Assembly: GCA_902799285.1 (NCBI GenBank)
Contig: CADCAA010000003.1
Coordinates: 38,215-102,214 of the forward strand
Direction of reading: 5' to 3'
DNA length: 64,000 nt
Origin: an uncultured Pseudomonadota bacterium
GTDB taxonomy: Bacteria > Pseudomonadota > Alphaproteobacteria > Rs-D84
The position numbers were made by a program, and so were the translations under genes. The notes under the pieces are model-generated. The model did not search any database and had not been told where the DNA came from. It saw nothing but the letters and a program-made list of their open reading frames with translations. Below are positions 3,999 through 64,000 of the stretch, piece after piece; within the stretch, counting starts at the first letter, position 1; the number at the start of each line of letters is the position of its first letter.

Positions 3999-4640
3999 TT
4001 AATCCCCCATTTCTTTTTGGTTTATGAATTGACCAATGCGTTGCAAGGTCTGTTTGCCCAAATCCCGTTGGATTTTTTCTTTTATAAATTTTTCGTGCTC
4101 TTTCTTTGAAATTGTTGGATAAATATTGCAAATAAACTTGCTGTCTTTATCCAGTAATTTAATATAAATATATTGCTCGTTCGCTTTTTGTTGTGCTTTT
4201 AATTTTGCGTCATCCAACGATTGTTTCGGGCCACAAATCAAAGTCAATGCCTTTGCCAAAATCATTGGGTCAATGTCGTGCCGCGGATTATGATCAATAA
4301 CTTTTATATCCACATCATCATCAACATGTTTTTTTTGAACTTTTGTTTTTGATTTCACAGCCACAGGATTATTAATTAATTCAGTGCATATAACCTCGAT
4401 ATTTTTTCTGATTCCATTAACAACCACAACGCGTTTGAATTTTTTGGATACAGCCTTGGCCACGGTCCGCACATTATAATAATTCATCCAAGTATACGGT
4501 ATAAAATCAATTTTTTGTGCAAAATCATTTGGAACAACAATCTTGCAAACTAATACATTATTCTGGGCGATTTCAAACACAGTCGAATTTTTATCAACCG
4601 ATTTTTGATAGTATTTTATATTATTTGTACTACGTGCCAT
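3999..4640 (-). CDS. Hypothetical Lys-rich protein inserted between fabD and fabG
   Basis: 213-aa ORF packed tightly against both neighbours (1-3 nt gaps). No recognisable motif. Confidence 0.5.
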   Translation of the reverse strand: MARSTNNIKYYQKSVDKNSTVFEIAQNNVLVCKIVVPNDFAQKIDFIPYTWMNYYNVRTVAKAVSKKFKRVVVVNGIRKNIEVICTELINNPVAVKSKTKVQKKHVDDDVDIKVIDHNPRHDIDPMILAKALTLICGPKQSLDDAKLKAQQKANEQYIYIKLLDKDSKFICNIYPTISKKEHEKFIKEKIQRDLGKQTLQRIGQFINQKEMGD

Positions 4641-5525: not shown

Positions 5526-6122
5526 CTATCCTTCGTAAACGTTTTCTTTTGTTTTTGCCAATAATGCAATCAATTCTTTTGGTGTTTTGTTTTTACTGTT
5601 CACCTTTGGCCAAATTTGATTTAATTTTTTATCCACAACAATATCTTTATCTGTCAATGGACGCGCCATCAATGGCCGTTTATCCAAAGGCGCATCAGGC
5701 AAGAAAGAACCATTATATTCCCATGGCCCTGTGAAAAATATAGGCATATTGATGTTAAATTGTGCCATATTTTTGAAATGCACTTCCTGACATGGTTGTG
5801 TGCCGCGGCTAAAATTATCTAACAAATATTGTTGTAAATCCGCCAAGTATGGCACTTTGTCGGCAACAATAAATTTGAAACTGTCGGTTATTATATCTTC
5901 ACCATTTACGGGCTTTAAATGACAATAATTTTCTGTTCGAAAAGATACCTTGCGCATCAAATGAAAAGCACACGGAACCTTTCTGACAAGTCCGATACAA
6001 TCAATCATATGTTGTATTTGGGCAAAATGTGAACCACTGTCACCAGAAACGGTTTCTTTATACTTATATTCCACCGGTTCTATTATTTCCAGAACAAAAC
6101 GCACATCTGATATAATTTTCAT
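5526..6122 (-). CDS. Hypothetical protein, tandem paralog 1
   Basis: 198 aa. Its C-terminal half aligns with the neighbouring ORF, and the two share the identical decapeptide RPLTDKDIVV. Confidence 0.6.
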   Translation of the reverse strand: MKIISDVRFVLEIIEPVEYKYKETVSGDSGSHFAQIQHMIDCIGLVRKVPCAFHLMRKVSFRTENYCHLKPVNGEDIITDSFKFIVADKVPYLADLQQYLLDNFSRGTQPCQEVHFKNMAQFNINMPIFFTGPWEYNGSFLPDAPLDKRPLMARPLTDKDIVVDKKLNQIWPKVNSKNKTPKELIALLAKTKENVYEG

Positions 6123-6135
6123 TATCTGTCCTTTT

Positions 6136-6693
6136 TTAGTAAATCGTTTCTTTGGTTTTTAAAAATTTCAGCATTTCAAATGGCATTTGGTCATACTTTG
6201 TTGGCCAAATTTGATGCAGACAGTTTTTATTAACAACAATATCTTTGTCTGTTAATGGACGGCATTCAATATAGCGACGCGTATATGTGGTCCTGTCCCC
6301 GGTATTTGGATTTATTTGCCCCAGTTCTTCAATTTCGCGAACGCCAGAAAAATATACAGGTTTATTGCCGGGTAAATTTAATTCATCAAAATTAAATATG
6401 TTATTGTATTTATGTTCCAAAAATTTACGAACCTCATTCGGATATGTCAATTTATCCGCAACAATAACAGTTAAATCTTGGCTATCTATATCAATTATTA
6501 TCGGTTTTTTATCTGTTATTTGTGTATATTTTATAATCTGGACCGTACGGGTTAAAACCAGTTCAAAAGATTCCGCGTTCAAAGAATTGCGTACAATATC
6601 AAACAATGCGCCACAATCAGGCAATAGGCCCTTTTGACAGACAGCACCCTTTCTTATATTATACTTAAAAACAACATCTGATGTAAAAAGCAT
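6136..6693 (-). CDS. Hypothetical protein, tandem paralog 2
   Basis: 185 aa, paralogous to 5526-6122 (shared FIVADK/VIVADK and RPLTDKDIVV[DN]K..L.QIWP). Confidence 0.6.
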   Translation of the reverse strand: MLFTSDVVFKYNIRKGAVCQKGLLPDCGALFDIVRNSLNAESFELVLTRTVQIIKYTQITDKKPIIIDIDSQDLTVIVADKLTYPNEVRKFLEHKYNNIFNFDELNLPGNKPVYFSGVREIEELGQINPNTGDRTTYTRRYIECRPLTDKDIVVNKNCLHQIWPTKYDQMPFEMLKFLKTKETIY

Positions 6694-42242: not shown

Positions 42243-43496
42243 TTATATTTTGAATATATGCACAACCGGCCGGTCCCCGGCCAATCGTACATAGATTAAA
42301 TGATTCCCAGAATTCGGTAAATTTGACCCAATGATATCACGTAAATCTGAATCAATCAAGTTTGCGGTTTTTATGCGCATAACACTGATATCTGCGGGCA
42401 GTGTCACCCACGACCGAACATCGGCATTTGTGGTCGATAATGAAAATATAGTTGAACCCAAACCAATCAGACCGGCCCAACGACTGTTTGAATTATATGC
42501 GGCGGCCTGGGCCACGGCGCGCGCGGTGGCACCCGTCCACGCACGCAACGCATCATTTATTCTGTATTCGTTAAATTCGGTCATAAACATTGCGTTTACG
42601 TCCGCCAAATGTTGTGCGCCCCGGATGGATACATCGCCCGACCAAAACTTTGGCTCTGCCACCGCAATCGATACCCAACCAATACCATTTCCCATCGGAA
42701 AGGGCAGGGATAATTCTTGTTCATGCAATTCCGGTGCAAACCCAGATTCGACAAACACCCACGTCGTGTCCGTTGGACGTGATTTTGATTCCGATAATTT
42801 CAAATCGTCCGCAACAAAAGTATTATTCGGTGCCATACCATTTGCGCGTTTAAGGTATGTTTCTGCATCGTTAAAATCGCCACGTGTCAAAAACCAAATA
42901 CCCGACAAATACATCAATGCCGGATTCATAATGTCGCGATACGCCGTCCATTGTGCGTTCTGGGATTGCAATTTTGACATCAGTTCGGAATTTTCATCCG
43001 TCGTCCGATTTTGATTTTTTTGCACCATATCGGCATAGGCGCGCGACATATCTTGTTGGCGCGCATATGATTGGTTGATGATAACGCGCACATCATTTTT
43101 ACGCCCATCGGCCACGGCATCCCAAATTTGATAGTACGACACAAACAGCGAATCCATCATCGTGGGTTTGTATTCCGTCGCCAATTGTCCGCCGATTAAA
43201 CCGGTTGCCTCGCGCACAATGCTGCCGCCGATTGTGTCGATATTTCGTTTGTTAAATTCTTCGAATGTGGCATCACTTTGCGAAAATTCAGCCGCCTGGA
43301 ATTCGGCCAGCCCCGTCACCAACAATTGCAAATTATTTTGTGATTTTATATCGGCACCATCGGCAAATTGCGCCGCAGATTCGATAAAATTATTATTTGA
43401 AAAATCATCACGCACATTATTTAACCGACGCGTCGCAACACTCGCACAACCCGCGATAAATAAAAGGCAGACAAAAACAGGTAATAATTTTTTCAT
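42243..43496 (-). CDS. Hypothetical lipoprotein
   Basis: Lipobox LFIAGCAS at the start MKKLLPVFV. ~417 aa, 4 nt downstream of the virD4 stop. Confidence 0.5.
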   Translation of the reverse strand: MKKLLPVFVCLLFIAGCASVATRRLNNVRDDFSNNNFIESAAQFADGADIKSQNNLQLLVTGLAEFQAAEFSQSDATFEEFNKRNIDTIGGSIVREATGLIGGQLATEYKPTMMDSLFVSYYQIWDAVADGRKNDVRVIINQSYARQQDMSRAYADMVQKNQNRTTDENSELMSKLQSQNAQWTAYRDIMNPALMYLSGIWFLTRGDFNDAETYLKRANGMAPNNTFVADDLKLSESKSRPTDTTWVFVESGFAPELHEQELSLPFPMGNGIGWVSIAVAEPKFWSGDVSIRGAQHLADVNAMFMTEFNEYRINDALRAWTGATARAVAQAAAYNSNSRWAGLIGLGSTIFSLSTTNADVRSWVTLPADISVMRIKTANLIDSDLRDIIGSNLPNSGNHLIYVRLAGDRPVVHIFKI

Positions 43497-43500
43497 CTGA

Positions 43501-45771
43501 TTATTCAGACAATATTTTAATCGTGTTTGTTTCTTTGTCAAACAGACGAATTGGCCCACTGTATCCCATCGCCTTGCAATGTGATGGCACCAAAAATTCC
43601 GGCATAGGCGCACTTTCGCCCATTGCAACCTTGGCCGCGATGGATTTTTGAATATCATTTTTCATCAGGTAATATCTTTCCTGATTGGCCTCAATCGGTC
43701 TGTTGTAAAACCCTTGGTACAGGACGATTTGTTTTCCTTCGTCCAGTGTCATAATATCCATTGGCGAATAAAGCGGTTTTGGTGTTTTTGTTTCTTCGGA
43801 TTCTTTTCCATCCTTGTCGATTTTTCTTTCTTTTTTAATTTCATTACCAATCATATTTGAAAAGCGTTCTGCGGTCTCGAAATCATTTTGACGCATAATA
43901 ATTTTCGCCGCCGTTGTTGAAATAATGGTTGCCGCCGCATCTTCGCCGTATTTTTCGCGAATTTGGTGAATGTCCTGGCCGATAATTAAATAAGAAATCT
44001 TTTGCCCACGTCCCAAATCAGGTCCCTGGATAACCGCATCCAACTTTTGCATTTTCGGCATTTCATCCAACACAAATAATACAGGATATGGCCCCAATTG
44101 TTTTCCGTTGGTGCTGGTGATACCCGGTGTGTTCACCAATAAATAGTTGGACATCAATTCAATGAATATACCGGTGATTGGATTCAAAGCCTGGGCGTCA
44201 ACCATATTGATTGATAAATATACCGTGACCGGTTTAACCTTGCCATCGCGCGGGTCAACCAGACCACGCAAATCTTCGAAATGGAAATCGGAATGACTGG
44301 TTCTGTTGCGAACAGCCGCATTACGGAATACACCCAATCCCGCCATAATTGTAGACAAAATTGATCCACGTTCTTTGTCCGGCGTGTTTGCCAATTGCGT
44401 CAGTTCCAAAACCGCACGATGCGCATACGCGAATTCTACGGCCTCGTTCACGGCGTTTTCCAAAACATCCTTCATCGGGTCGGCCAGTGCCACCATTTGG
44501 TCGCCTTGTTTGCGGCGTTCCTCTAATTGTGCGGCATTTGCCAATTGCGATGCATTCAACCAATCCAAAATCATGGATAACGATGCTTCTTTGCCAATCC
44601 AAGCATCCGGAATATGCCGCCATGTTCCAACATGCACATAGTTCATCGCGTTTAATTCCCCGCGCTGTAATAACCCCATTGCCGCATAGGCGTTTGGATT
44701 ACTGGACATTTGCAGGTAATATTCCAACAAAATATTCGCGTCTTCTTGGTTAAATTCGCCTGACTTCAACCGCGCATAGAAATAATCATCGGCCTTGGCG
44801 CGTTCAACCTTGGAAATAATATACTGCACAAACCCGGATAATCCCGCACGCCCCGATATTGACCAGTGTGGATCGGCACTTGACCCTGTTGCATCTGGCA
44901 CCAATACCTTGCAAATTGTATCAACATACAAATCGCGTTGTTCGGTTTCAAATGGAACGTGTTCCGGCGACAACGGATTCCACGAAGGATAATAAATTCC
45001 GCGTTCTGGGTCATCTTGTCCGGCCCAGTTCATAATAAACACCGGCCCAATTGTTGCGCGATATGCGGATGTTTCCTGTTTTAATTCGGGCTTTGGGTCG
45101 TTAATAATCATTGATACAGTATCGCATTCAACAATTGTTGGTTCCACCACAGCCTTGGTTTTACCGGACCCTGGGGGCGCAACACATAACACGGACAATG
45201 TTTCGTCCAACATTAATGGCTTGGTTTTTTTACCGTCCTTGAAATAGCCCAACACCATCATAAACCCGTTAAACAAACCATCTTTATTTTTCCAATTTTT
45301 ACCCATTTTTTTGATATCTTCGGCGGTTGCCTTGCGCGAAGATTTAGAATCATAAATATCGGACCCATGCGGATTAAATTCCTTGGTCAATGTGTCATCC
45401 GCAATGAAATAGAACGCAATAATCGGTAATAATGGCACAACGCATGCAAAATCCGGCCGTATCAATGAACGCAAAATCCATCCCGGTACCGCCGCCGCAA
45501 CCGATAAACCACATGTATGAATCATATCACGCAAAAATATGCCGGCCCAATGCGCGGTCGCCGGCGACCATCCATAACGAAATGTATGTTCCAGGATAAA
45601 GGCAAACCCAAACGCAATTGCACAAACAACCCATGTCACGGCATTCCAACGGAATACCCAAAATGTTTGTGCCATAGGGCCACGTTCGTGCTCTTTATAC
45701 GCAGATGATTTGAATATATTCAAACCCTTTGACGAACCGCCCGCAGATAAAATATTGAATTTCTCAGCCAT
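43501..45771 (-). CDS. virD4: Type IV secretion coupling protein VirD4/TraG family
   Basis: N-terminal TM helices, Walker A CVAPPGSGKT and Walker B VLFVLDEMP, ~757 aa. Start assigned at MAEKFNIL. Confidence 0.8.
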   Translation of the reverse strand: MAEKFNILSAGGSSKGLNIFKSSAYKEHERGPMAQTFWVFRWNAVTWVVCAIAFGFAFILEHTFRYGWSPATAHWAGIFLRDMIHTCGLSVAAAVPGWILRSLIRPDFACVVPLLPIIAFYFIADDTLTKEFNPHGSDIYDSKSSRKATAEDIKKMGKNWKNKDGLFNGFMMVLGYFKDGKKTKPLMLDETLSVLCVAPPGSGKTKAVVEPTIVECDTVSMIINDPKPELKQETSAYRATIGPVFIMNWAGQDDPERGIYYPSWNPLSPEHVPFETEQRDLYVDTICKVLVPDATGSSADPHWSISGRAGLSGFVQYIISKVERAKADDYFYARLKSGEFNQEDANILLEYYLQMSSNPNAYAAMGLLQRGELNAMNYVHVGTWRHIPDAWIGKEASLSMILDWLNASQLANAAQLEERRKQGDQMVALADPMKDVLENAVNEAVEFAYAHRAVLELTQLANTPDKERGSILSTIMAGLGVFRNAAVRNRTSHSDFHFEDLRGLVDPRDGKVKPVTVYLSINMVDAQALNPITGIFIELMSNYLLVNTPGITSTNGKQLGPYPVLFVLDEMPKMQKLDAVIQGPDLGRGQKISYLIIGQDIHQIREKYGEDAAATIISTTAAKIIMRQNDFETAERFSNMIGNEIKKERKIDKDGKESEETKTPKPLYSPMDIMTLDEGKQIVLYQGFYNRPIEANQERYYLMKNDIQKSIAAKVAMGESAPMPEFLVPSHCKAMGYSGPIRLFDKETNTIKILSE

Positions 45772-45828
45772 GGTGTTATTATTATACCAGAAAACAACGA
45801 TTAAATAAATCACGAAATTAAAAATATT

Positions 45829-46482
45829 ATGAAAAATATACCACGAATTTTTATCAGTGAAAATATTAAACCCGGTAATATAATACCGGTCGATAAATCG
45901 GTTGCCCACTATTTATCGCACGTAATGCGCCGAAATGATTGCCTGGTCTTTGGTGGTGGAAATGAATATACGGCCACATTAAACGCGGACGGCAAAACAA
46001 TGACAATCGGCGATAAAACGACTCACGCCGACCCGTCAAATGATATTACATTGTATTTCGCGCCGATAAAAAGATTGGACGATATGCTGAATATGGCGAC
46101 CCAGATGGGTGTAAAAAAATTTATACCTGTGATAACAGAACGCACGGTTGCAAACCACATAAATTGGGAACGTATGAAAAAAATAGTGATTGAGGCATCT
46201 GAGCAATCCAACCGCAACAGTGTGCCTGAAATTGCATCGCCAATAAAGTTTTCCGATTTACCGTGTTCTGATTTGGTGTTTGCAGATGAACGTGCGGCAT
46301 ACGGTGCCGAAATGCCAACGGAGTATAAAAACATAAAAAATATATTGGTCGGGCCCGAAGGTGGCTTTGCGGATTCTGAATTTGCTGCGCTGGATAAAAA
46401 TGGTGCGTATCCATTGTCGTTGGGTAAAACAATTTTACGCGCAGAATTGGCGACGCCAATCGCAATTGCAAAGGTTATTTAA
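45829..46482 (+). CDS. rsmE: 16S rRNA m3U1498 methyltransferase RsmE
   Basis: PUA-like N-terminus and the SPOUT C-terminal motif VGPEGGF...LGKTILRAE. Confidence 0.75.
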   Translation: MKNIPRIFISENIKPGNIIPVDKSVAHYLSHVMRRNDCLVFGGGNEYTATLNADGKTMTIGDKTTHADPSNDITLYFAPIKRLDDMLNMATQMGVKKFIPVITERTVANHINWERMKKIVIEASEQSNRNSVPEIASPIKFSDLPCSDLVFADERAAYGAEMPTEYKNIKNILVGPEGGFADSEFAALDKNGAYPLSLGKTILRAELATPIAIAKVI

Positions 46483-59205: not shown

Positions 59206-59871
59206 TTAACGGGCTGGTGCAATACGAATTTCAATTCTGCGATTGGTCAATCGGCCGATGCTGTCCTGGGCGGCGATTGGTCGCGCAGACCCGCGTCCCA
59301 CAATAAACATCCTTGCCGGTTTAATTTCATGACGCGATAAAAATACACCAACGCGTTCAGCCATATCCAACGACATACGGCGCGCGGCATCCGCATCACG
59401 CATCGCATCGGTATATCCCGCAATTTCCAAATATGTCGCATTATATTTGCGTAATATTCGTGCCACAGTATTTAATATGCCCGTTCCATTTTTAGAAATG
59501 TCCCCTGCATCGCGTTGTATAATTGCATCACGCACCAAAATCACAACAACATCGGTTCCTGCGCGTTCCACAGAAACGCCGGCCGTCCGCAAAGAATCAT
59601 ATAATTCATATTCTAATTCAGACATATAACGCACGCCGACCATATTGTCATTTTCCGCCTTGTCGCCATATTCCATTTTTTTATTGTCCGATGTTAATGT
59701 TTTGCCGCCACTGCCCAAATACACCGGCCGCTTTGCAATTTTAGATGTTTCCGTCATATCCATAAAACTGGCGCCGTTCAGATAATAATCCCATGTTGCG
59801 TGATCGGGGCTGACATATCCCGTACACGCCGACAAACAACACAACAAAATAAAAAACTTTGCGAATTTCAT
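59206..59871 (-). CDS. OmpA-family lipoprotein (C-terminal peptidoglycan-binding domain)
   Basis: Lipobox LSACTG and a C-terminal OmpA-like domain (GYTD...NRRIEIR). Confidence 0.7.
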   Translation of the reverse strand: MKFAKFFILLCCLSACTGYVSPDHATWDYYLNGASFMDMTETSKIAKRPVYLGSGGKTLTSDNKKMEYGDKAENDNMVGVRYMSELEYELYDSLRTAGVSVERAGTDVVVILVRDAIIQRDAGDISKNGTGILNTVARILRKYNATYLEIAGYTDAMRDADAARRMSLDMAERVGVFLSRHEIKPARMFIVGRGSARPIAAQDSIGRLTNRRIEIRIAPAR

Positions 59872-59872
59872 T

Positions 59873-60331
59873 TTACTCGACAATAATTGATATTAAATTC
59901 CGTGGTGCGCTCAGACAACTCTCACTCCCGCTGTTTTCAATTTTATTCACAGAAATTTTGCTGGCCCAATCTAATTTTTTTGTTGCGAAATAAACACATT
60001 CACTATTGGTCAAATTTGTTAAATTGATTGCAAAACCCTTGCCGTCCAGGTTTGCATCAACAGACCAATCATCGCCACCAATTGGTGCTGCATCTGATGT
60101 AATTGCGCCGGCCTTAATCAAATAATCGACCGACACACCGGAATAATCGGCACGCGCCTCTAATAAAATTTTGGTGTTTCGTGCAATTTGTTCCAATTCA
60201 GATACGGCCATATTGCGAATTTGATTTGTGCGCAACATATTGTATGTGCCGTACGCCGCCGCAGTCATCACCGCACCAACCGCCAATACGCCCAACATTT
60301 CAATCAGTGAACGTCCCGATTCTGATTTCAT
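59873..60331 (-). CDS. Prepilin-like protein (type IV pilin / TadE-like pseudopilin N-terminus, C-terminal Cys pair)
   Basis: MKSESG|RSLIEMLGVLAVGAVM has Glu at +5 after the Gly, then a hydrophobic helix. Two Cys near the C-terminus. Confidence 0.5.
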   Translation of the reverse strand: MKSESGRSLIEMLGVLAVGAVMTAAAYGTYNMLRTNQIRNMAVSELEQIARNTKILLEARADYSGVSVDYLIKAGAITSDAAPIGGDDWSVDANLDGKGFAINLTNLTNSECVYFATKKLDWASKISVNKIENSGSESCLSAPRNLISIIVE

Positions 60332-60360
60332 AAATTCTCTCCTTAAATTATATATGTTTA

Positions 60361-61899
60361 TTATTTTGAAACCTCAACAATTTCGGCACCTTCGAATAAT
60401 CCCATAGCGCTTGCCATCATTGGGTCGGCCGCCAATTCTTGCTGTTGATGTTCATGTGCGGTCGGCATATTGCACGAAGTTTCAGACCGCGCCAATACCC
60501 ACGAATGCCCGGTATATTTTTCCAACCAAGCCGATAATTTATTTGCAAATTCACGGTCGTTGCCACGATCAAAATAGTTTAATTTGCCGTCCGAAATTTC
60601 GCATACCTCGACATTTTCAGAAAAATAAGTATATAACAAAATCTGTTTATCGGCCTGCATCGCATGTCCCAACTCAGAAGCCGTATTTATTTTGTTTGCG
60701 GGTTTTGCTGTGGGTGCCTCAACCGGCTTTGCCTCGGGCTTTGATGCAACGGTGTTTTGATTGTTTTTCAATATTTCCGGTACAGACGGCATATCGGCAA
60801 TATGCATCATACGCACAACCAACATATCAAAACATTGCTTTTGATTTCCCGACATTTGCATTTCAGAAACCGCCGCAACCATAACCTGCCAAATACGGGA
60901 TAATACATTTAATGAAACGCGCGAATTTATTTTGCGTGTTTTTTCGCGTTGGTCAGCGGTATATGGTGAATTCAATCCGTCGCCAGCATTTATCGCCGGA
61001 TGCATACGTGTTGCCCAATGCGTCCATTCCATCATGTCGGTCAACAGCATAGATAAATCCGCGCCATTAGTATAAATCGTGTCCGCCATTTCCAAAGCCC
61101 GCGCCGTGTCGCCGGATAATATGGTATCCATAAAATCGACAACCATATTGCGGTCCGCGCGTTTTAACATATCCATCACGGCCTGTTCATCAACGTGACC
61201 ACCGGTTTGAGCAATCGCCTGGTCCAACAAAGACAACCCATCACGCACAGAACCATCCGCCGCGCGCGCCAATAATTCGTTTGCGGCATCTGTCAACTCG
61301 ACTTTCTCTTGACCGGCAATCCAATCAAAATGTTTTTTCAATGTTTCAATAGGAACACGCACCAAATCAAATCGCTGGCACCGTGATAAAATTGTCACAG
61401 GCACTTTTCTAATTTCGGTCGTTGCCAAAATAAAAATAACATGTGCGGGTGGTTCCTCTAATGTTTTAAGCAACGCGTTAAAAGCCGCGGTTGATAACAT
61501 ATGAACTTCGTCGATGATGTAAACCTTGTACCGGCCATTGGTTGGGCGATATTGTGCGGCATCCAAAATATCACGAATATTATCAACACCAGTATGAGAC
61601 GCCGCGTCGATTTCCATAACGTCAATATGTTGTCCCGCCGCAATAGCGCGACAGTTTTCACATACACCACATGGTGTTGCGGTCGGACCATCGGACGATA
61701 AACAGTTTAATGCCTTGGCCAAAATACGCGCGGTACTGGTTTTGCCGGTCCCACGAATTCCGGTAAAAATATAGGCGTGTGCAATACGACCGGTTTGTAT
61801 AGCTGTTGTTAACGTTTTAACCAAAACATCCTGGCCAATCAGCGATTGAAAATCTTGGCTGCGATATTTACGTGCAAGTACAGTGTAATTGTTATCCAT
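60361..61899 (-). CDS. dnaX: DNA polymerase III subunit gamma/tau
   Basis: AAA+ motif GIRGTGKTS, the zinc module CGVCENC, and DEVHML. Confidence 0.9.
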   Translation of the reverse strand: MDNNYTVLARKYRSQDFQSLIGQDVLVKTLTTAIQTGRIAHAYIFTGIRGTGKTSTARILAKALNCLSSDGPTATPCGVCENCRAIAAGQHIDVMEIDAASHTGVDNIRDILDAAQYRPTNGRYKVYIIDEVHMLSTAAFNALLKTLEEPPAHVIFILATTEIRKVPVTILSRCQRFDLVRVPIETLKKHFDWIAGQEKVELTDAANELLARAADGSVRDGLSLLDQAIAQTGGHVDEQAVMDMLKRADRNMVVDFMDTILSGDTARALEMADTIYTNGADLSMLLTDMMEWTHWATRMHPAINAGDGLNSPYTADQREKTRKINSRVSLNVLSRIWQVMVAAVSEMQMSGNQKQCFDMLVVRMMHIADMPSVPEILKNNQNTVASKPEAKPVEAPTAKPANKINTASELGHAMQADKQILLYTYFSENVEVCEISDGKLNYFDRGNDREFANKLSAWLEKYTGHSWVLARSETSCNMPTAHEHQQQELAADPMMASAMGLFEGAEIVEVSK

Positions 61900-61968
61900 A
61901 ATAATACTTTCCTTGTGGCAAAGAATACCAAAGAAAAGTAAAATTTCAACAACAAAGTAAAATAGTTT

Positions 61969-62304
61969 TTAATTCAAATTTGTAATGAAATCAGGAAATG
62001 GAATTTCTTCTTCGGAATCCTGTTTTGCATCGGCATCCGTACCGGCTTTTTCTTGCGCGGCAACCTCAGCCTCGGCCGCAGCGACCGCCGCCGCTTTTTC
62101 CTTGCTGTCGCGAATTGAATCGATTTTTTCCTGTTCAGCATTTGTCATACGAACACAATGTTCGGCGGCCTGCAGCAAGCGTTCACGTTCGATTTCGTCC
62201 GAAACCGTGCGCGCCTGGTCGATTAATTGTTTGCGACGAACACGCCATTTATGACAACGTTGAATCATCAACCCCACAGAAGACTGATTTTTTTTATTTT
62301 GCAT
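61969..62304 (-). CDS. Hypothetical protein (coiled-coil, Ala/Glu-rich)
   Basis: 111-aa ORF with no family recognised. Confidence 0.4.
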   Translation of the reverse strand: MQNKKNQSSVGLMIQRCHKWRVRRKQLIDQARTVSDEIERERLLQAAEHCVRMTNAEQEKIDSIRDSKEKAAAVAAAEAEVAAQEKAGTDADAKQDSEEEIPFPDFITNLN

Positions 62305-62468
62305 TTTCTTTCTTTTATAATTTTTATTTGGAATACCACGGTTGATATAATTAAATTATCAAAATCAACCAACAACTGGCTATAATATAAATCATCTTAA
62401 AACTGATTGCAATATCTTTTTTCTGTTGCTAACCTAAACACATATATATATCACAGAGAGGATGTTTT

Positions 62469-63827
62469 TTGCGAACAGAACGCGGTAATTTTTTATTACA
62501 GGCATTATTAGCATTGTCGTTGCTGTTCTTTTTTATGCCTATTTTAACCAATCGTTTAATTACAAATGATGTGGATGCCAAAATGTATTCGTCTGTGCAT
62601 CAAATTGATGCGGCGGAAACCGCGGCGCGTATATTTATTCGTGAAAATGTGGATTCGATTGCGTATGGCAAAACAACGATTCGTGGAAATGATTTTTCAG
62701 ATTTGCTGGAACCATATGGTTTGCCATTGGGCTATATTCCGCGTACCGCATTTGGCCAGGATATATACCTGGTTATCAACAAGGATGATTCCAGTATTGG
62801 TGGCGAATTGATTGTCAATGGTGGCCAAATCACAAATATTCAAATTGCCGAAATGGTTCGCAGAATTGGTTTTTATGCAGCACAAACAGATAATGGGCTG
62901 GTTGTTGGTGTGCCATTAAATACATTATACCAGGATGTTGTCCGTCGTAACGAACCCGATATAAATAATTCTGTGTTTTTAACCGATTTAGATATGAATG
63001 ATTTTTCAATTGAAAATACAAACAGGGTGCTGGGGCATAATCTGGTTGCGGACACGGCGAATTTTGATACGTTGGATATTACCGGAAACGAAGTTGAACG
63101 TAATTCCAAAAATAAAATCAAGGTTTTGAATTCTGATAAAAGTATTTTCCAATCTAAATCCGGGGGGTCGGCATTGGCGTTGACGCGTGGCGCATTAAAA
63201 GCAAAAAGTGTTTTTGGAAAAACAATTTCTGAATATGGTTCGGCCGGAAATTTTGAATCAGAATCTGCGTCGGTTTATTCATTTGATATGACTGCGGGGC
63301 GAACTGGCTTTACCGGGCCGGTCAAATGGGATATTCGTGGTAATATGGAAACTGAACGCATAACATTGGGTGTCGAAAGGCTTGAGGTTGGCGCATACCT
63401 GAATGTCAGCAGTGGCCAAGATGTGTACGTCAGTGGCACAAATTCAATATCATATAATTCCAACAGTGGTATTTCTGTGAATAATATAACGGCATCGCAT
63501 ATAACCCTGCGCGACCAAACATCGCGGGCGTTAAACGCGGGTGAAAATGGTGCGGTCATTGTTGATATTCGCCCGGCCAGTACGACAACATTGCCGGATA
63601 TAAATGTATCCGGATTAAATAACGATGGATATGCAATTTTGCAAAATCCAAAAAAAGATGACGACAAAACAACAACGTGTCGCGATATCATATCGTCTTT
63701 GGGTGAAACATACAGTTCGTCGTCGTTGGCGCAACATATATTGTGCGAATACCTGTTTTGGGAACGATTGGAACAAAGAATAAATGCAAAACAATGTTTA
63801 ATGGCTGGAAAAAGTGACTGTATATAA
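62469..63827 (+). CDS. Large prepilin-like protein (TadG/GspK-like minor pilin candidate)
   Basis: TTG start with a GAGAGG ribosome-binding site. MRTERG|NFLLQALLALSLLFFF has a TadE-like ERG motif and a hydrophobic helix. 452 aa with four C-terminal Cys. Confidence 0.45.
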   Translation: MRTERGNFLLQALLALSLLFFFMPILTNRLITNDVDAKMYSSVHQIDAAETAARIFIRENVDSIAYGKTTIRGNDFSDLLEPYGLPLGYIPRTAFGQDIYLVINKDDSSIGGELIVNGGQITNIQIAEMVRRIGFYAAQTDNGLVVGVPLNTLYQDVVRRNEPDINNSVFLTDLDMNDFSIENTNRVLGHNLVADTANFDTLDITGNEVERNSKNKIKVLNSDKSIFQSKSGGSALALTRGALKAKSVFGKTISEYGSAGNFESESASVYSFDMTAGRTGFTGPVKWDIRGNMETERITLGVERLEVGAYLNVSSGQDVYVSGTNSISYNSNSGISVNNITASHITLRDQTSRALNAGENGAVIVDIRPASTTTLPDINVSGLNNDGYAILQNPKKDDDKTTTCRDIISSLGETYSSSSLAQHILCEYLFWERLEQRINAKQCLMAGKSDCI

Positions 63828-64000
63828 AACGAAAATTTTTGATAACGCATCACGTGGTGCGTCGTTGTTAGAGGTAGTGCTGGCAATATCAATTGCGGCG
63901 GTGGCGGCCCCGTTTATGTATAAACAAATCGAAAACACATACAGCGATATTGAAAATATATCTGTGGCACAAAAAATTCTGGATGTTGAAAACGATGCAT
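63814..64000 (+). CDS. Prepilin-like protein (partial, continues beyond the right edge)
   Basis: ...SRG|ASLLEVVLAISIAAVAAPF is paralogous to the N-terminus of the 59873-60331 product. Probable GTG start overlapping the previous stop. Confidence 0.4.
   Translation, partial: MTVYKTKIFDNASRGASLLEVVLAISIAAVAAPFMYKQIENTYSDIENISVAQKILDVENDA

What the first reader, a model, noticed from the sequence alone, without database searches (positions are those of the whole stretch)
59873..64000. Cluster of three paralogous prepilin/TadE-like genes around dnaX, one unusually large, running off the window edge
Three ORFs begin with class-III signal-like N-termini: G|RSLIEM..., ERG|NFLLQ... and RG|ASLLEV..., each followed by a ~20-residue hydrophobic helix. 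Two have Glu at +5 and the large one has Gln, as in GspK- or TadG-like minor pilins. The 152-aa and the partial product are clearly paralogous over their first ~50 residues. The 452-aa member, with four C-terminal Cys, is far larger than a structural pilin and could be a tip adhesin or TadG-like component. No assembly ATPase, secretin or prepilin peptidase is visible in the window. The genes flank dnaX and an OmpA-like lipoprotein, which is unusual placement for pilus genes. The system type (Tad/Flp, T4aP minor pilins or T2SS pseudopilins) cannot be decided from this fragment.
Basis: partly seen in the sequence, partly recalled or inferred. Interest (0 to 1): 0.6.

Follow-up and report, generated by a model that had tools for sequence, protein, structure and literature searches.

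The report
Three PilV-like pilins plus major pilin
A gut alphaproteobacterium with a very small genome (Candidatus Enterousia) carries one small type IV pilin gene and a conserved cassette of three large paralogous relatives of PilV, the tip adhesin of conjugative thin pili; these are probably subunits of a cell-contact pilus, but no pilus assembly genes were found nearby.

Summary
The three ORFs and their prepilin-like N-termini are real, and no other of the ~70 window ORFs has such an N-terminus. The 152-aa protein is a type IV pilin: it passes the Pfam PilS threshold and has a 6-residue leader, Gly-1, Glu+5 and a C-terminal Cys pair. It has no detectable similarity to the edge ORF. The edge ORF is the start of a 417-aa protein, which is a distant paralogue of the 452-aa protein and of a 438-aa protein encoded next. 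Profile-profile comparison links this trio to PilV, the shufflon tip adhesin of IncI/PAPI-1 type IVb conjugative pili (probability 99.3%, E 4e-20, 225 columns). There is no TadE/Tad or GspK signal.

The organism is Candidatus Enterousia (order Rs-D84), a gut lineage with genomes under 1 Mb that is presumed to depend on a partner. The trio occurs in at least 263 species genomes. Gene order is almost fixed in the 80 loci examined, and Gly-1 is invariant there. Position +5 is always Gln in the 452-aa type and Glu in the other two.

There is no shufflon. No ATPase, platform, secretin or peptidase gene was found in about 108 kb of this species or within ±10 kb of the trio in the 80 genomes. Whether these proteins are assembled into a pilus is therefore inferred, not shown. 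I class it as a new variant of a known kind, of moderate interest.

The parts
59873..60331 (-). Type IV prepilin, 152 aa, and the probable major pilin. The leader is MKSESG, followed by G|RSLIE. The globular domain is PilS-like and carries a conserved Cys pair.
   Evidence: Pfam PilS scores 23.4 bits (gathering threshold 22) and N_methyl 19.4 bits (below the threshold of 21.2). Of 43 orthologues, 31 hit N_methyl and 29 hit PilS. In related genomes Gly-1 is present in 64/64, Arg+1 in 62/64 and Glu+5 in 63/64; two C-terminal Cys are present in 72/74. Sources name orthologues PilE, PulG or 'type II secretion system protein'.
59206..59883 (-). OmpA-like (peptidoglycan-binding) lipoprotein. It overlaps the pilin stop by 11 nt, so it is probably co-translated with the pilin. 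Whether it belongs to the pilus system is uncertain.
   Evidence: Pfam OmpA scores 41.9 bits. The best NCBIfam match is the YiaD family. It was found in 73 of 80 related loci and lies next to the pilin gene in every layout inspected. It shows no relation to IncI Pil proteins by hhalign.
62469..63827 (+). p452, the first of three PilV-like large pilin-like paralogues. It has a TTG start, a short leader (MRTERG), Gln at +5, and a C-terminal domain with four Cys.
   Evidence: The subfamily profile matches 8 annotated PilV proteins by hhalign: 95.6% probability, E 1e-8, 182 columns. The combined three-subfamily profile gives 99.3% and E 4e-20. The AF2 N-terminal domain (residues 1-150) has pLDDT of about 80-89, with a long N-terminal helix followed by a beta-sheet. 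The top Foldseek hit is a minor pilin, 8dx4 PilW (probability 0.99, E 0.024). Gln+5 is present in 79/79 orthologues and Gly-1 in 79/79.
63814..64000 (+). 5' end of p417, the second PilV-like paralogue. It has a GTG start that overlaps the end of p452 by 14 nt and a 15-residue leader before G|ASLLEV. The full 417-aa protein is read from metagenome contigs of the same species.
   Evidence: The full gene is at L002 4822-6075; L002 differs from the window at 16 of 5008 nt. The subfamily matches PilV by hhalign at 98.1% probability and E 7e-14. Glu+5 and Gly-1 are each present in 79/79 orthologues. Downstream, outside the window, come p438 (the third paralogue), p170, p156 and rluD.

Best explanation
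The locus encodes the filament subunits of a type IV pilus related to the PilS/PilV thin pilus of IncI plasmids and PAPI-1-type elements. Here the genes are fixed in the chromosome of Candidatus Enterousia, a genome-reduced gut alphaproteobacterium.

Shown:
- The 152-aa protein is a PilS-type type IV pilin.
- p452, p417 and p438 are ancient paralogues of one another and homologues of the constant (pilin plus adjacent) region of the tip adhesin PilV.
- Their class III signal features are under strict conservation.

Inferred:
- A prepilin peptidase cuts all four proteins after the invariant Gly.
- The 152-aa pilin polymerises into the shaft.
- The three PilV-like proteins form a priming or tip complex that starts assembly and mediates contact with another cell surface. 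A surface glycan or LPS is a plausible target, as it is for PilV.
- p452 always has Gln instead of Glu at +5. It would therefore sit at the very apex, as the Glu5-less GspK/PilX-type subunits do.
- Three fixed paralogues take the place of shufflon-generated C-terminal variants.
- In an organism that lacks respiration, complete glycolysis and standard transporters, the likely use is attachment to a partner or host cell. DNA uptake is possible in addition.
For: Homology to PilV:
- hhalign of the three-subfamily alignment against 8 annotated PilV proteins gives 99.3% probability, E 4.3e-20 and 225 columns. The match includes the PilV motif LYR..PELNRM.TAIDMGGNDI.N.
- Each subfamily matches on its own (95.6%, 98.1% and 98.6%). 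Seven control Pil families score at most 0.9% against the three PilV-like subfamilies.
- tblastn of a p438 orthologue against 72,556 plasmids found 82 records. In all 25 listed, the match lies on pilV (annotated as such in 24; one record has no annotation).
- The orthologue P0018 passes the Pfam Shufflon_N threshold (32.6 bits against 27.5). Six of 103 representatives match, best E 2.8e-11.

Pilin identity of the 152-aa protein.

Selection and spread:
- The p452 family is found in 263 species genomes.
- Gene order is conserved in the 80 loci examined.
- Gly-1 is present in 100% of orthologues. Position +5 is fixed per subfamily. Pro at +18 is present in 95-100%.
- There are 1169 50%-identity clusters at E<=1e-3. 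All top 150 fall into the three subfamilies.
- The same three-gene cassette, in the same order, occurs in a different chromosomal neighbourhood in a more distant lineage.

Pilin fold of the p452 N-terminal domain.

Lifestyle context: Enterousia/Rs-D84 genomes are under 1 Mb and the organisms are presumed partner-dependent (PMC12306168).

PilV function: it is a pilus adhesin that selects recipient cells and binds LPS (PMC9045228; PMC5297154).
Against: - No GspE/PilB-type ATPase, GspF/PilC-type platform, secretin or A24 peptidase gene was found. The search covered the 64-kb window, about 16 kb upstream and 28 kb downstream in the same species, and ±10 kb of the trio in 80 genomes.
- The one genomic survey of the lineage reports type IV pili for another lineage but not for Rs-D84 (PMC12306168).
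- The window proteins themselves are weak against curated models. p452 has no Pfam hit, N_methyl is below threshold for all of them, and only orthologues reach Shufflon_N.
- The +1 residues (Arg, Asn, Ala, Asn/Ser) are atypical.
- The pilin is short with a 6-residue leader, unlike classical type IVb pilins.
- Residues 153-375 of p452 could not be modelled (pLDDT below 40). The second model gave no meaningful structural match.
- The C-termini are not hypervariable between species, as might be expected of an adhesin under diversifying selection.
- There are no expression or processing data.
Confidence: 0.6

Rival explanations
1. These are pilin-derived surface or periplasmic proteins that are no longer assembled into a filament. 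In this reading the N-terminal helix serves only as a membrane anchor, the proteins are leftovers or re-purposed parts of an ancestral conjugative pilus, and the genome has no dedicated assembly machine.
For: No assembly genes were found in about 108 kb of this species or within ±10 kb of the trio in 80 genomes. Type IV pili are not reported for Rs-D84 in PMC12306168. The genes are scattered among housekeeping genes.
Against: A plain membrane anchor does not require an invariant Gly at -1 or a fixed Glu/Gln at +5, yet both are conserved in 79/79 or 63/64 orthologues across proteins that are only about 50% identical overall. Genomes under 1 Mb rarely keep four useless genes intact in 263 species. 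About 88% of the genome was not examined.
Confidence: 0.15
2. The same subunits build a competence (DNA-uptake) pilus rather than an adhesion pilus.
For: Type IV pili drive DNA uptake in many bacteria (established knowledge). A ComF-type protein (double zinc ribbon plus phosphoribosyltransferase domain) lies about 27 kb downstream in the same species. Genome-reduced, partner-dependent bacteria need external nucleotides (PMC12306168).
Against: The demonstrated role of PilV homologues is cell-surface or LPS recognition during conjugation. No ComEA, ComEC or DprA gene was seen in the sequence examined. ComF homologues are also widespread in non-competent bacteria.
Confidence: 0.12
3. This is a type II secretion pseudopilus. 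The 152-aa protein would be the GspG-like major pseudopilin and the three large proteins would be the GspI/J/K-like tip.
For: One source names a pilin orthologue 'type II secretion system protein' and another 'PulG'. There are weak NCBIfam matches to GspH and GspI (E 0.1-0.25). p452 lacks Glu+5, as GspK does.
Against: No Gsp family reaches its threshold. The small protein matches PilS and has a disulfide-type C-terminus. The large proteins match PilV specifically at 99.3%. No gspD, gspE, gspF, gspL or gspM gene is present nearby.
Confidence: 0.06
4. One reading: a Tad/Flp system with TadE/TadF/TadG-like pseudopilins.
For: The only support is the general class III-like N-terminus and the large size of one member, which resembles TadG.
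Against: No protein or orthologue gives a PF07811 (TadE) or PF13400 (Tad) signal. The small protein is 152 aa with a globular PilS-type domain, not a Flp pilin of 50-80 aa. No cpaF/tadA or rcpA gene is present nearby.
Confidence: 0.02

Closest known systems
PilV, the minor pilin and tip adhesin of the type IVb thin pilus of IncI1/IncI2 plasmids (R64, TP114) and of PAPI-1-type elements (Pfam PF04917 Shufflon_N)
   Same: The proteins are of similar size (about 420-500 aa). Both have a class III signal-like N-terminus. They are homologous over about 225-240 N-terminal residues, including the LYR...LN.M...L.MGG..I.N motif. Both are paired with a PilS-family pilin.
   Different: There is no shufflon: no sfx-like inverted repeats and no Rci recombinase. 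Three fixed, co-linear paralogues are present instead of one gene with switchable C-termini. The C-terminal halves are unrelated to those of plasmid PilV. The genes are chromosomal, sit among housekeeping genes, are conserved across at least 263 species genomes, and are not next to pilL-U genes or a conjugation system.
PilS, the major pilin of the R64 / Salmonella Typhi type IVb pilus (Pfam PF08805)
   Same: The globular domain matches the PilS model above its threshold. A C-terminal Cys pair is present.
   Different: The protein is much shorter (146 aa mature) and has a 6-residue leader, which resembles type IVa pilins. Position +1 is a conserved Arg. A profile comparison with two plasmid PilS sequences is not significant (1.8%).
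The GspI-GspJ-GspK tip complex of type II secretion, and the PilV/W/X minor pilins of type IVa pili
   Same: Several minor pilin-like proteins are encoded side by side. One large member lacks Glu+5, which suits a subunit that caps the filament (established knowledge of GspK; Gln+5 in 79/79 orthologues).
   Different: No Gsp or type IVa minor-pilin family gives a sequence or profile match. All three members here are large and are paralogous to each other.
CofB and TcpB, the large minor pilins of the ETEC CFA/III and Vibrio cholerae TCP type IVb pili
   Same: Both are large (over 400 aa) minor pilins of type IVb-like systems, with a pilin domain followed by beta-rich C-terminal domains. CofB is a trimer at the pilus tip that primes assembly (own knowledge, not tested here).
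   Different: No sequence match to any solved structure was found, and Foldseek gave no hit to CofB or TcpB. Those are single genes forming homotrimers. Here there are three distinct paralogues.

Membership tests
Type IV pilin / class III signal peptide proteins (PF07963 N_methyl, TIGR02532) | Short basic leader ending in Gly at -1 | tested here: met
   Gly-1 is present in 64/64 (pilin), 79/79 (p452), 79/79 (p417) and 73/73 (p438) orthologues.
Type IV pilin / class III signal peptide proteins (PF07963 N_methyl, TIGR02532) | Glu at +5 followed by an uncharged hydrophobic helix of about 20 residues | tested here: met
   Glu+5 is present in the pilin (63/64), p417 (79/79) and p438 (70/73). p452 has Gln in 79/79. 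All four have the hydrophobic stretch.
Type IV pilin / class III signal peptide proteins (PF07963 N_methyl, TIGR02532) | Profile score at or above the curated threshold | tested here: inconclusive
   The window pilin scores 19.4 bits against a threshold of 21.2; the edge ORF scores 16.6 and full-length p417 13.0. Of 43 pilin orthologues, 31 match at E<=0.01. Only 1 of 103 large-protein representatives matches.
Type IV pilin / class III signal peptide proteins (PF07963 N_methyl, TIGR02532) | Cleavage (and methylation) by an A24 prepilin peptidase encoded in the same genome | not testable with these tools
   No A24 peptidase gene was found in about 108 kb of this species or in 80 related loci. 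The rest of the genome could not be searched.
PilS major pilin (PF08805) | Pfam match above the gathering score | tested here: met
   The score is 23.4 bits against 22, covering residues 40-129. Of 43 orthologues, 29 match.
PilS major pilin (PF08805) | Type IVb-style long leader and a mature pilin of about 180-200 aa | tested here: not met
   The leader is 6 residues in 69/74 orthologues, and the mature length is about 146 aa.
PilV / Shufflon_N (PF04917) | Homology to the PilV N-terminal constant region | tested here: met
   hhalign gives 99.3% probability and E 4.3e-20. The subfamilies score 95.6-98.6%, while seven control Pil families score at most 0.9% against them. P0018 scores 32.6 bits against a threshold of 27.5. 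In all 25 listed tblastn hits the match lies on pilV (annotated as such in 24; one record has no annotation). The window's own p452 has no direct Pfam hit.
PilV / Shufflon_N (PF04917) | C-terminal segments exchanged by a shufflon (sfx repeats plus an Rci recombinase) | tested here: not met
   Only short, chance-level inverted repeats were found. No recombinase gene lies within ±10 kb.
PilV / Shufflon_N (PF04917) | Encoded in a pilL-pilV operon of a conjugative plasmid or integrative element | tested here: not met
   The genes are chromosomal and flanked by dnaX, rluD, skp and accBC. No PilN, O, P, Q, R, T or U homologue lies within ±10 kb in 80 genomes.
TadE/TadF/TadG pseudopilins (PF07811, PF13400) | Profile match to the TadE or Tad models | tested here: not met
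   No hit for any of the proteins, for 103 representatives or for 43 pilin orthologues.
T2SS minor pseudopilin GspK | Profile match to GspK models; location in a gsp operon | tested here: not met
   No Pfam or NCBIfam GspK hit. No gsp genes nearby. Only the absence of Glu+5 is shared.
CofB/TcpB-type type IVb minor pilins | Sequence or fold similarity to the solved CofB/TcpB structures | tested here: inconclusive
   No sequence hit to the PDB. Foldseek finds only a generic minor pilin, PilW 8dx4, at E 0.024. Half of the model has low confidence.

The most novel reading that the evidence does not exclude
Three fixed PilV paralogues, with the Gln+5 member at the apex, form a heterotrimeric pilus tip. 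This tip replaces shufflon-based switching and serves as the attachment organelle of an obligately partner-dependent, genome-reduced alphaproteobacterium. It would be a conjugative-pilus adhesin module domesticated for symbiosis, and the assembly genes would be dispersed or possibly non-canonical.
Probability: 0.3. Interest if true: 0.7.

Novelty: new variant of a known kind. Interest (0 to 1): 0.5.

Why it matters
Candidatus Enterousia and the order Rs-D84 are widespread in ruminant, horse, chicken and human guts. They have genomes under 1 Mb and no known means of contacting the partners they are presumed to need. This locus gives the first concrete candidates for such a contact structure.

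It also annotates a large protein family that has no curated family annotation. The family comprises over 1,000 clusters at 50% identity.

Finally, it shows that the PilV adhesin scaffold, known from conjugative plasmids, exists as a vertically inherited, triplicated chromosomal module. That offers a natural comparison between two ways of diversifying an adhesin: DNA inversion and gene triplication.

Tried and rejected
1. The Tad/Flp and GspK assignments were rejected because no profile supports them.

2. I tested paralogy between the 152-aa pilin and the edge ORF. BLASTP finds nothing, and the profiles share only the N-terminal helix.

3. I looked for a shufflon. There are no significant inverted repeats and no recombinase.

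4. I compared p170, p156 and the OmpA-like lipoprotein with IncI PilL, M, O, P, T and U. All comparisons scored below 3% probability. p170 looks like a generic zinc-ribbon/TM/DUF3426 protein.

5. Two AlphaFold2 runs on p452 used 28 mixed and 88 orthologous sequences. Both model only residues 1-150 and 378-445. Foldseek on the second model gave only noise.

6. Sequence searches of the PDB found no usable relative.

7. I searched for assembly genes in several ways:
- Pfam on all non-obvious window ORFs.
- tblastn of IncI and Gluconobacter Pil proteins against 80 related loci.
- A contig walk of about 16 kb upstream and 28 kb downstream.
Nothing was found.

8. The literature on Enterousia/Rs-D84 contains no mention of pili for this lineage.

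Full report
**Observation**

- ORF 59873-60331 (-) encodes a 152-aa protein beginning MKSESG|RSLIEMLGVLAVGAVMTAAAYGTY.
- ORF 62469-63827 (+, TTG start) encodes a 452-aa protein beginning MRTERG|NFLLQALLALSLLFFFMP, with Cys at 404, 426, 443 and 451.
- A GTG at 63814 opens an ORF that reads ...NASRG|ASLLEVVLAISIAAVAAP and runs off the window.

A simple scan for G-x4-[E/Q] followed by an uncharged hydrophobic stretch picks out only these proteins among 69 window ORFs. dnaX (60361-61899) and a small DUF4167-like gene lie between the two groups. An OmpA-like lipoprotein gene (59206-59883) overlaps the pilin stop codon.

**Extending the locus**

The exact 452-aa protein occurs on four metagenome contigs. 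One of them, L002, differs from the window at 16 of 5008 positions.

These contigs show that the edge ORF is not a small pilin. It encodes a 417-aa protein. A third large protein follows it (438 aa; called as 436 aa), beginning ...QQSG|NMLVELLLSISLAMLIIP. After that come a 170-aa zinc-ribbon/TM protein, a 156-aa secreted protein and rluD. Starts and stops overlap or nearly abut, as in an operon.

BLASTP and profile comparisons show that the three large proteins are distant paralogues:
- p417 against p438: 98.3% probability, E 2e-14.
- p452 against p438: 94.1%.
- p452 against p417: 59%, with pairwise BLASTP E 2e-4.

The 152-aa protein has no BLASTP similarity to the edge ORF, even at E 100. At the profile level it shares only 28 N-terminal columns with the p417 family. 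The cluster is one small pilin plus a trio of large paralogues.

**What the proteins are**

The 152-aa protein passes the Pfam PilS threshold (23.4 bits against 22) and nearly reaches N_methyl (19.4 against 21.2). Of 43 orthologues, 31 hit N_methyl and 29 hit PilS. Two C-terminal Cys are conserved in 72 of 74 orthologues. It is a type IV pilin.

The large proteins have no Pfam hit themselves. An orthologue of p438 (P0018) passes Shufflon_N, the constant region of PilV (32.6 bits against 27.5, E 8e-8). tblastn of that orthologue against 72,556 plasmids found 82 records. In all 25 listed, the match lies on pilV, annotated 'shufflon system plasmid conjugative transfer pilus tip adhesin PilV' in 24 of them; one record has no annotation.

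I collected eight annotated PilV proteins from Salmonella, Escherichia, Yersinia, Pseudomonas, Xanthomonas, Cupriavidus and Gluconobacter plasmids. hhalign of the three-subfamily alignment against them gives 99.3% probability, E 4.3e-20 and 225 aligned columns. The alignment runs from the signal region through the globular pilin domain to the motif LYR..PELNRM.TAIDMGGNDI.N. Each subfamily matches PilV on its own (p452 95.6%, p417 98.1%, p438 98.6%). PilL, M, O, P, S, T and U controls score at most 0.9% against them.

AlphaFold2 models of p452 are confident only for residues 1-150 and for residues 378-445. The first region shows a long N-terminal helix packed on a beta-sheet, which is the pilin fold. 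The middle region is not modelled. The second model gave nothing meaningful. No TadE, Tad, GspK or other family has any support.

**Organism and distribution**

A scan of one genome per species found the p452 family in 263 species genomes. The 80 best loci are from Candidatus Enterousia and related unnamed gut Alphaproteobacteria from rumen, colon and faeces (taxonomy).

According to PMC12306168, Enterousia and its order Rs-D84 have genomes mostly under 1 Mb. They lack the TCA cycle, respiration, flagella, several glycolytic enzymes and standard transporters, and are presumed to depend on partner organisms. That paper mentions type IV pili for another lineage but not for Rs-D84.

In the 80 loci the gene order is essentially invariant: skp, ompA-like, pilin, dnaX and the 111-aa gene on one strand, and p452, p417, p438, p170, p156 and rluD on the other. 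The pilin-like proteins are about 46-57% identical to the window's copies, against 71-75% for the housekeeping neighbours.

The class III signal features are conserved far more strictly than the rest of the proteins:
- Gly-1 is present in every orthologue of all four families.
- Position +5 is Gln in 79/79 p452 orthologues, Glu in 79/79 p417, Glu in 70/73 p438 and Glu in 63/64 pilins.
- A Pro at +18 is present in 95-100% of the large proteins.

An exhaustive profile search finds 1169 clusters at 50% identity (E<=1e-3). All top 150 fall into the three subfamilies, each with its own N-terminal signature. In a more distant lineage the same three genes, in the same order, sit between lpxB and a binding-protein gene. 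The trio therefore behaves as a unit.

**What is missing**

There is no shufflon. Only short, chance-level inverted repeats are present, and there is no recombinase gene. Conservation is even along the large proteins, with no hypervariable C-terminus.

No assembly ATPase, platform protein, secretin or prepilin peptidase gene was found in any of the following:
- the window;
- about 16 kb upstream (ileS, pheST, mreCD, PBP2, rodA, topA, dnaG) and about 28 kb downstream (PBP1A, mraY, ftsW, murG, an RND efflux set, comF-like, leuS) of the window in the same species;
- ±10 kb of the trio in 80 genomes.

This covers roughly 12% of a genome of about 0.9 Mb. The rest could not be searched because the collection scans were capped.

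**Mechanism**

Homology and conservation are shown; the function is inferred. In the most economical reading, a prepilin peptidase encoded elsewhere cleaves all four proteins after Gly-1. The 152-aa pilin then forms the shaft, and the three PilV-like proteins form a priming or tip complex.

PilV of IncI2 TP114 and of PAPI-1 is a pilus adhesin. It selects target cells, and in PAPI-1 it binds LPS (PMC9045228, PMC5297154). The invariant Gln+5 of p452 parallels the Glu5-less GspK/PilX-type subunits that cap pseudopili and pili (established knowledge). I therefore place p452 at the apex.

Three fixed paralogues would do statically what the shufflon does by DNA inversion. For a partner-dependent, genome-reduced bacterium the likely use is attachment to a partner or host surface. 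DNA uptake is a secondary possibility; a ComF-type gene lies about 27 kb downstream.

The main rival is that these proteins are anchored but not assembled. It gains weight from the absence of assembly genes in everything I could read. It does not explain the strict conservation of Gly-1 and of the +5 residue.

**Verdict**

These are pilin-class proteins, but of the PilS/PilV (type IVb conjugative-pilus) lineage, not Tad. The feature is a new variant of a known kind: a chromosomal, vertically inherited, shufflon-less triplication of the PilV scaffold, plus a short PilS-like pilin with an unusual Arg at +1, in an unstudied symbiont-like lineage. Interest is moderate. It would rise if the trio proves to be a heterotrimeric tip, or if these genomes turn out to lack a canonical assembly machine.

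Noticed in passing
window 43501-45909 (-) and 42243-43658 (-): A lone VirD4/TraG-type type IV secretion coupling protein (PF02534, 174.8 bits) sits among housekeeping genes. It is followed by a 471-aa ORF with no Pfam hit. IncI-type thin pili normally accompany a conjugative type IV secretion system, so a link to the PilS/PilV-like genes is conceivable but untested.
   Followed up: partly
window 59873-60331 (-), residue +1 of the pilin: The residue after the predicted cleavage site is Arg in 62 of 64 orthologues. The large paralogues have Asn/Ser, Ala or Ser/Asn/Gly at this position. A conserved charged +1 residue is unusual for type IV pilins. It suggests a peptidase without strict +1 specificity or without N-methylation.
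   Followed up: partly
L002 7412-7924 and 7921-8391 (just beyond the window end): Two small genes are translationally coupled to the trio and conserved in 78 of 80 genomes. p170 has an N-terminal CxxC...CxxC zinc ribbon, one TM segment and a DUF3426-like domain (below threshold, in 3 of 3 orthologues). p156 is a secreted protein containing Cys. Neither resembles IncI Pil proteins.
   Followed up: partly
L002 9525-12200 and 12197-12967: An 891-aa Cys-rich secreted protein with repeated C..C...D..CG.DFE.C-like motifs and a 256-aa protein follow rluD. Neither has a Pfam hit. They are conserved in 66 and 44 of 80 genomes and may be further surface proteins.
   Followed up: no
window 5526-6122 (-), 6136-6693 (-): Two tandem paralogous ORFs with no Pfam hit share a C-terminal RPLTDKDIVVxK...QIWP motif. 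The neighbouring ORF at 3999-4640 also has no Pfam hit.
   Followed up: no
L096 10001-14190: In a more distant lineage the same three-gene cassette (498, 476 and 426 aa, in the same order) lies between lpxB and a periplasmic binding-protein gene. There the first member has Glu rather than Gln at +5. The Gln+5 state is therefore specific to the Enterousia-like clade.
   Followed up: partly
L104 15079-15813 (about 27 kb downstream of the window end in the same species): A ComF-type gene (double zinc ribbon plus phosphoribosyltransferase domain) overlaps an unannotated 402-aa secreted protein gene. This is a weak hint of DNA-uptake capacity.
   Followed up: no
window 60361-61899 (-) and neighbours: dnaX is followed directly by the pilin and the OmpA-like lipoprotein gene, rather than by the ybaB-recR pair that usually follows it. 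This arrangement was seen in every related locus whose layout covers dnaX.
   Followed up: partly
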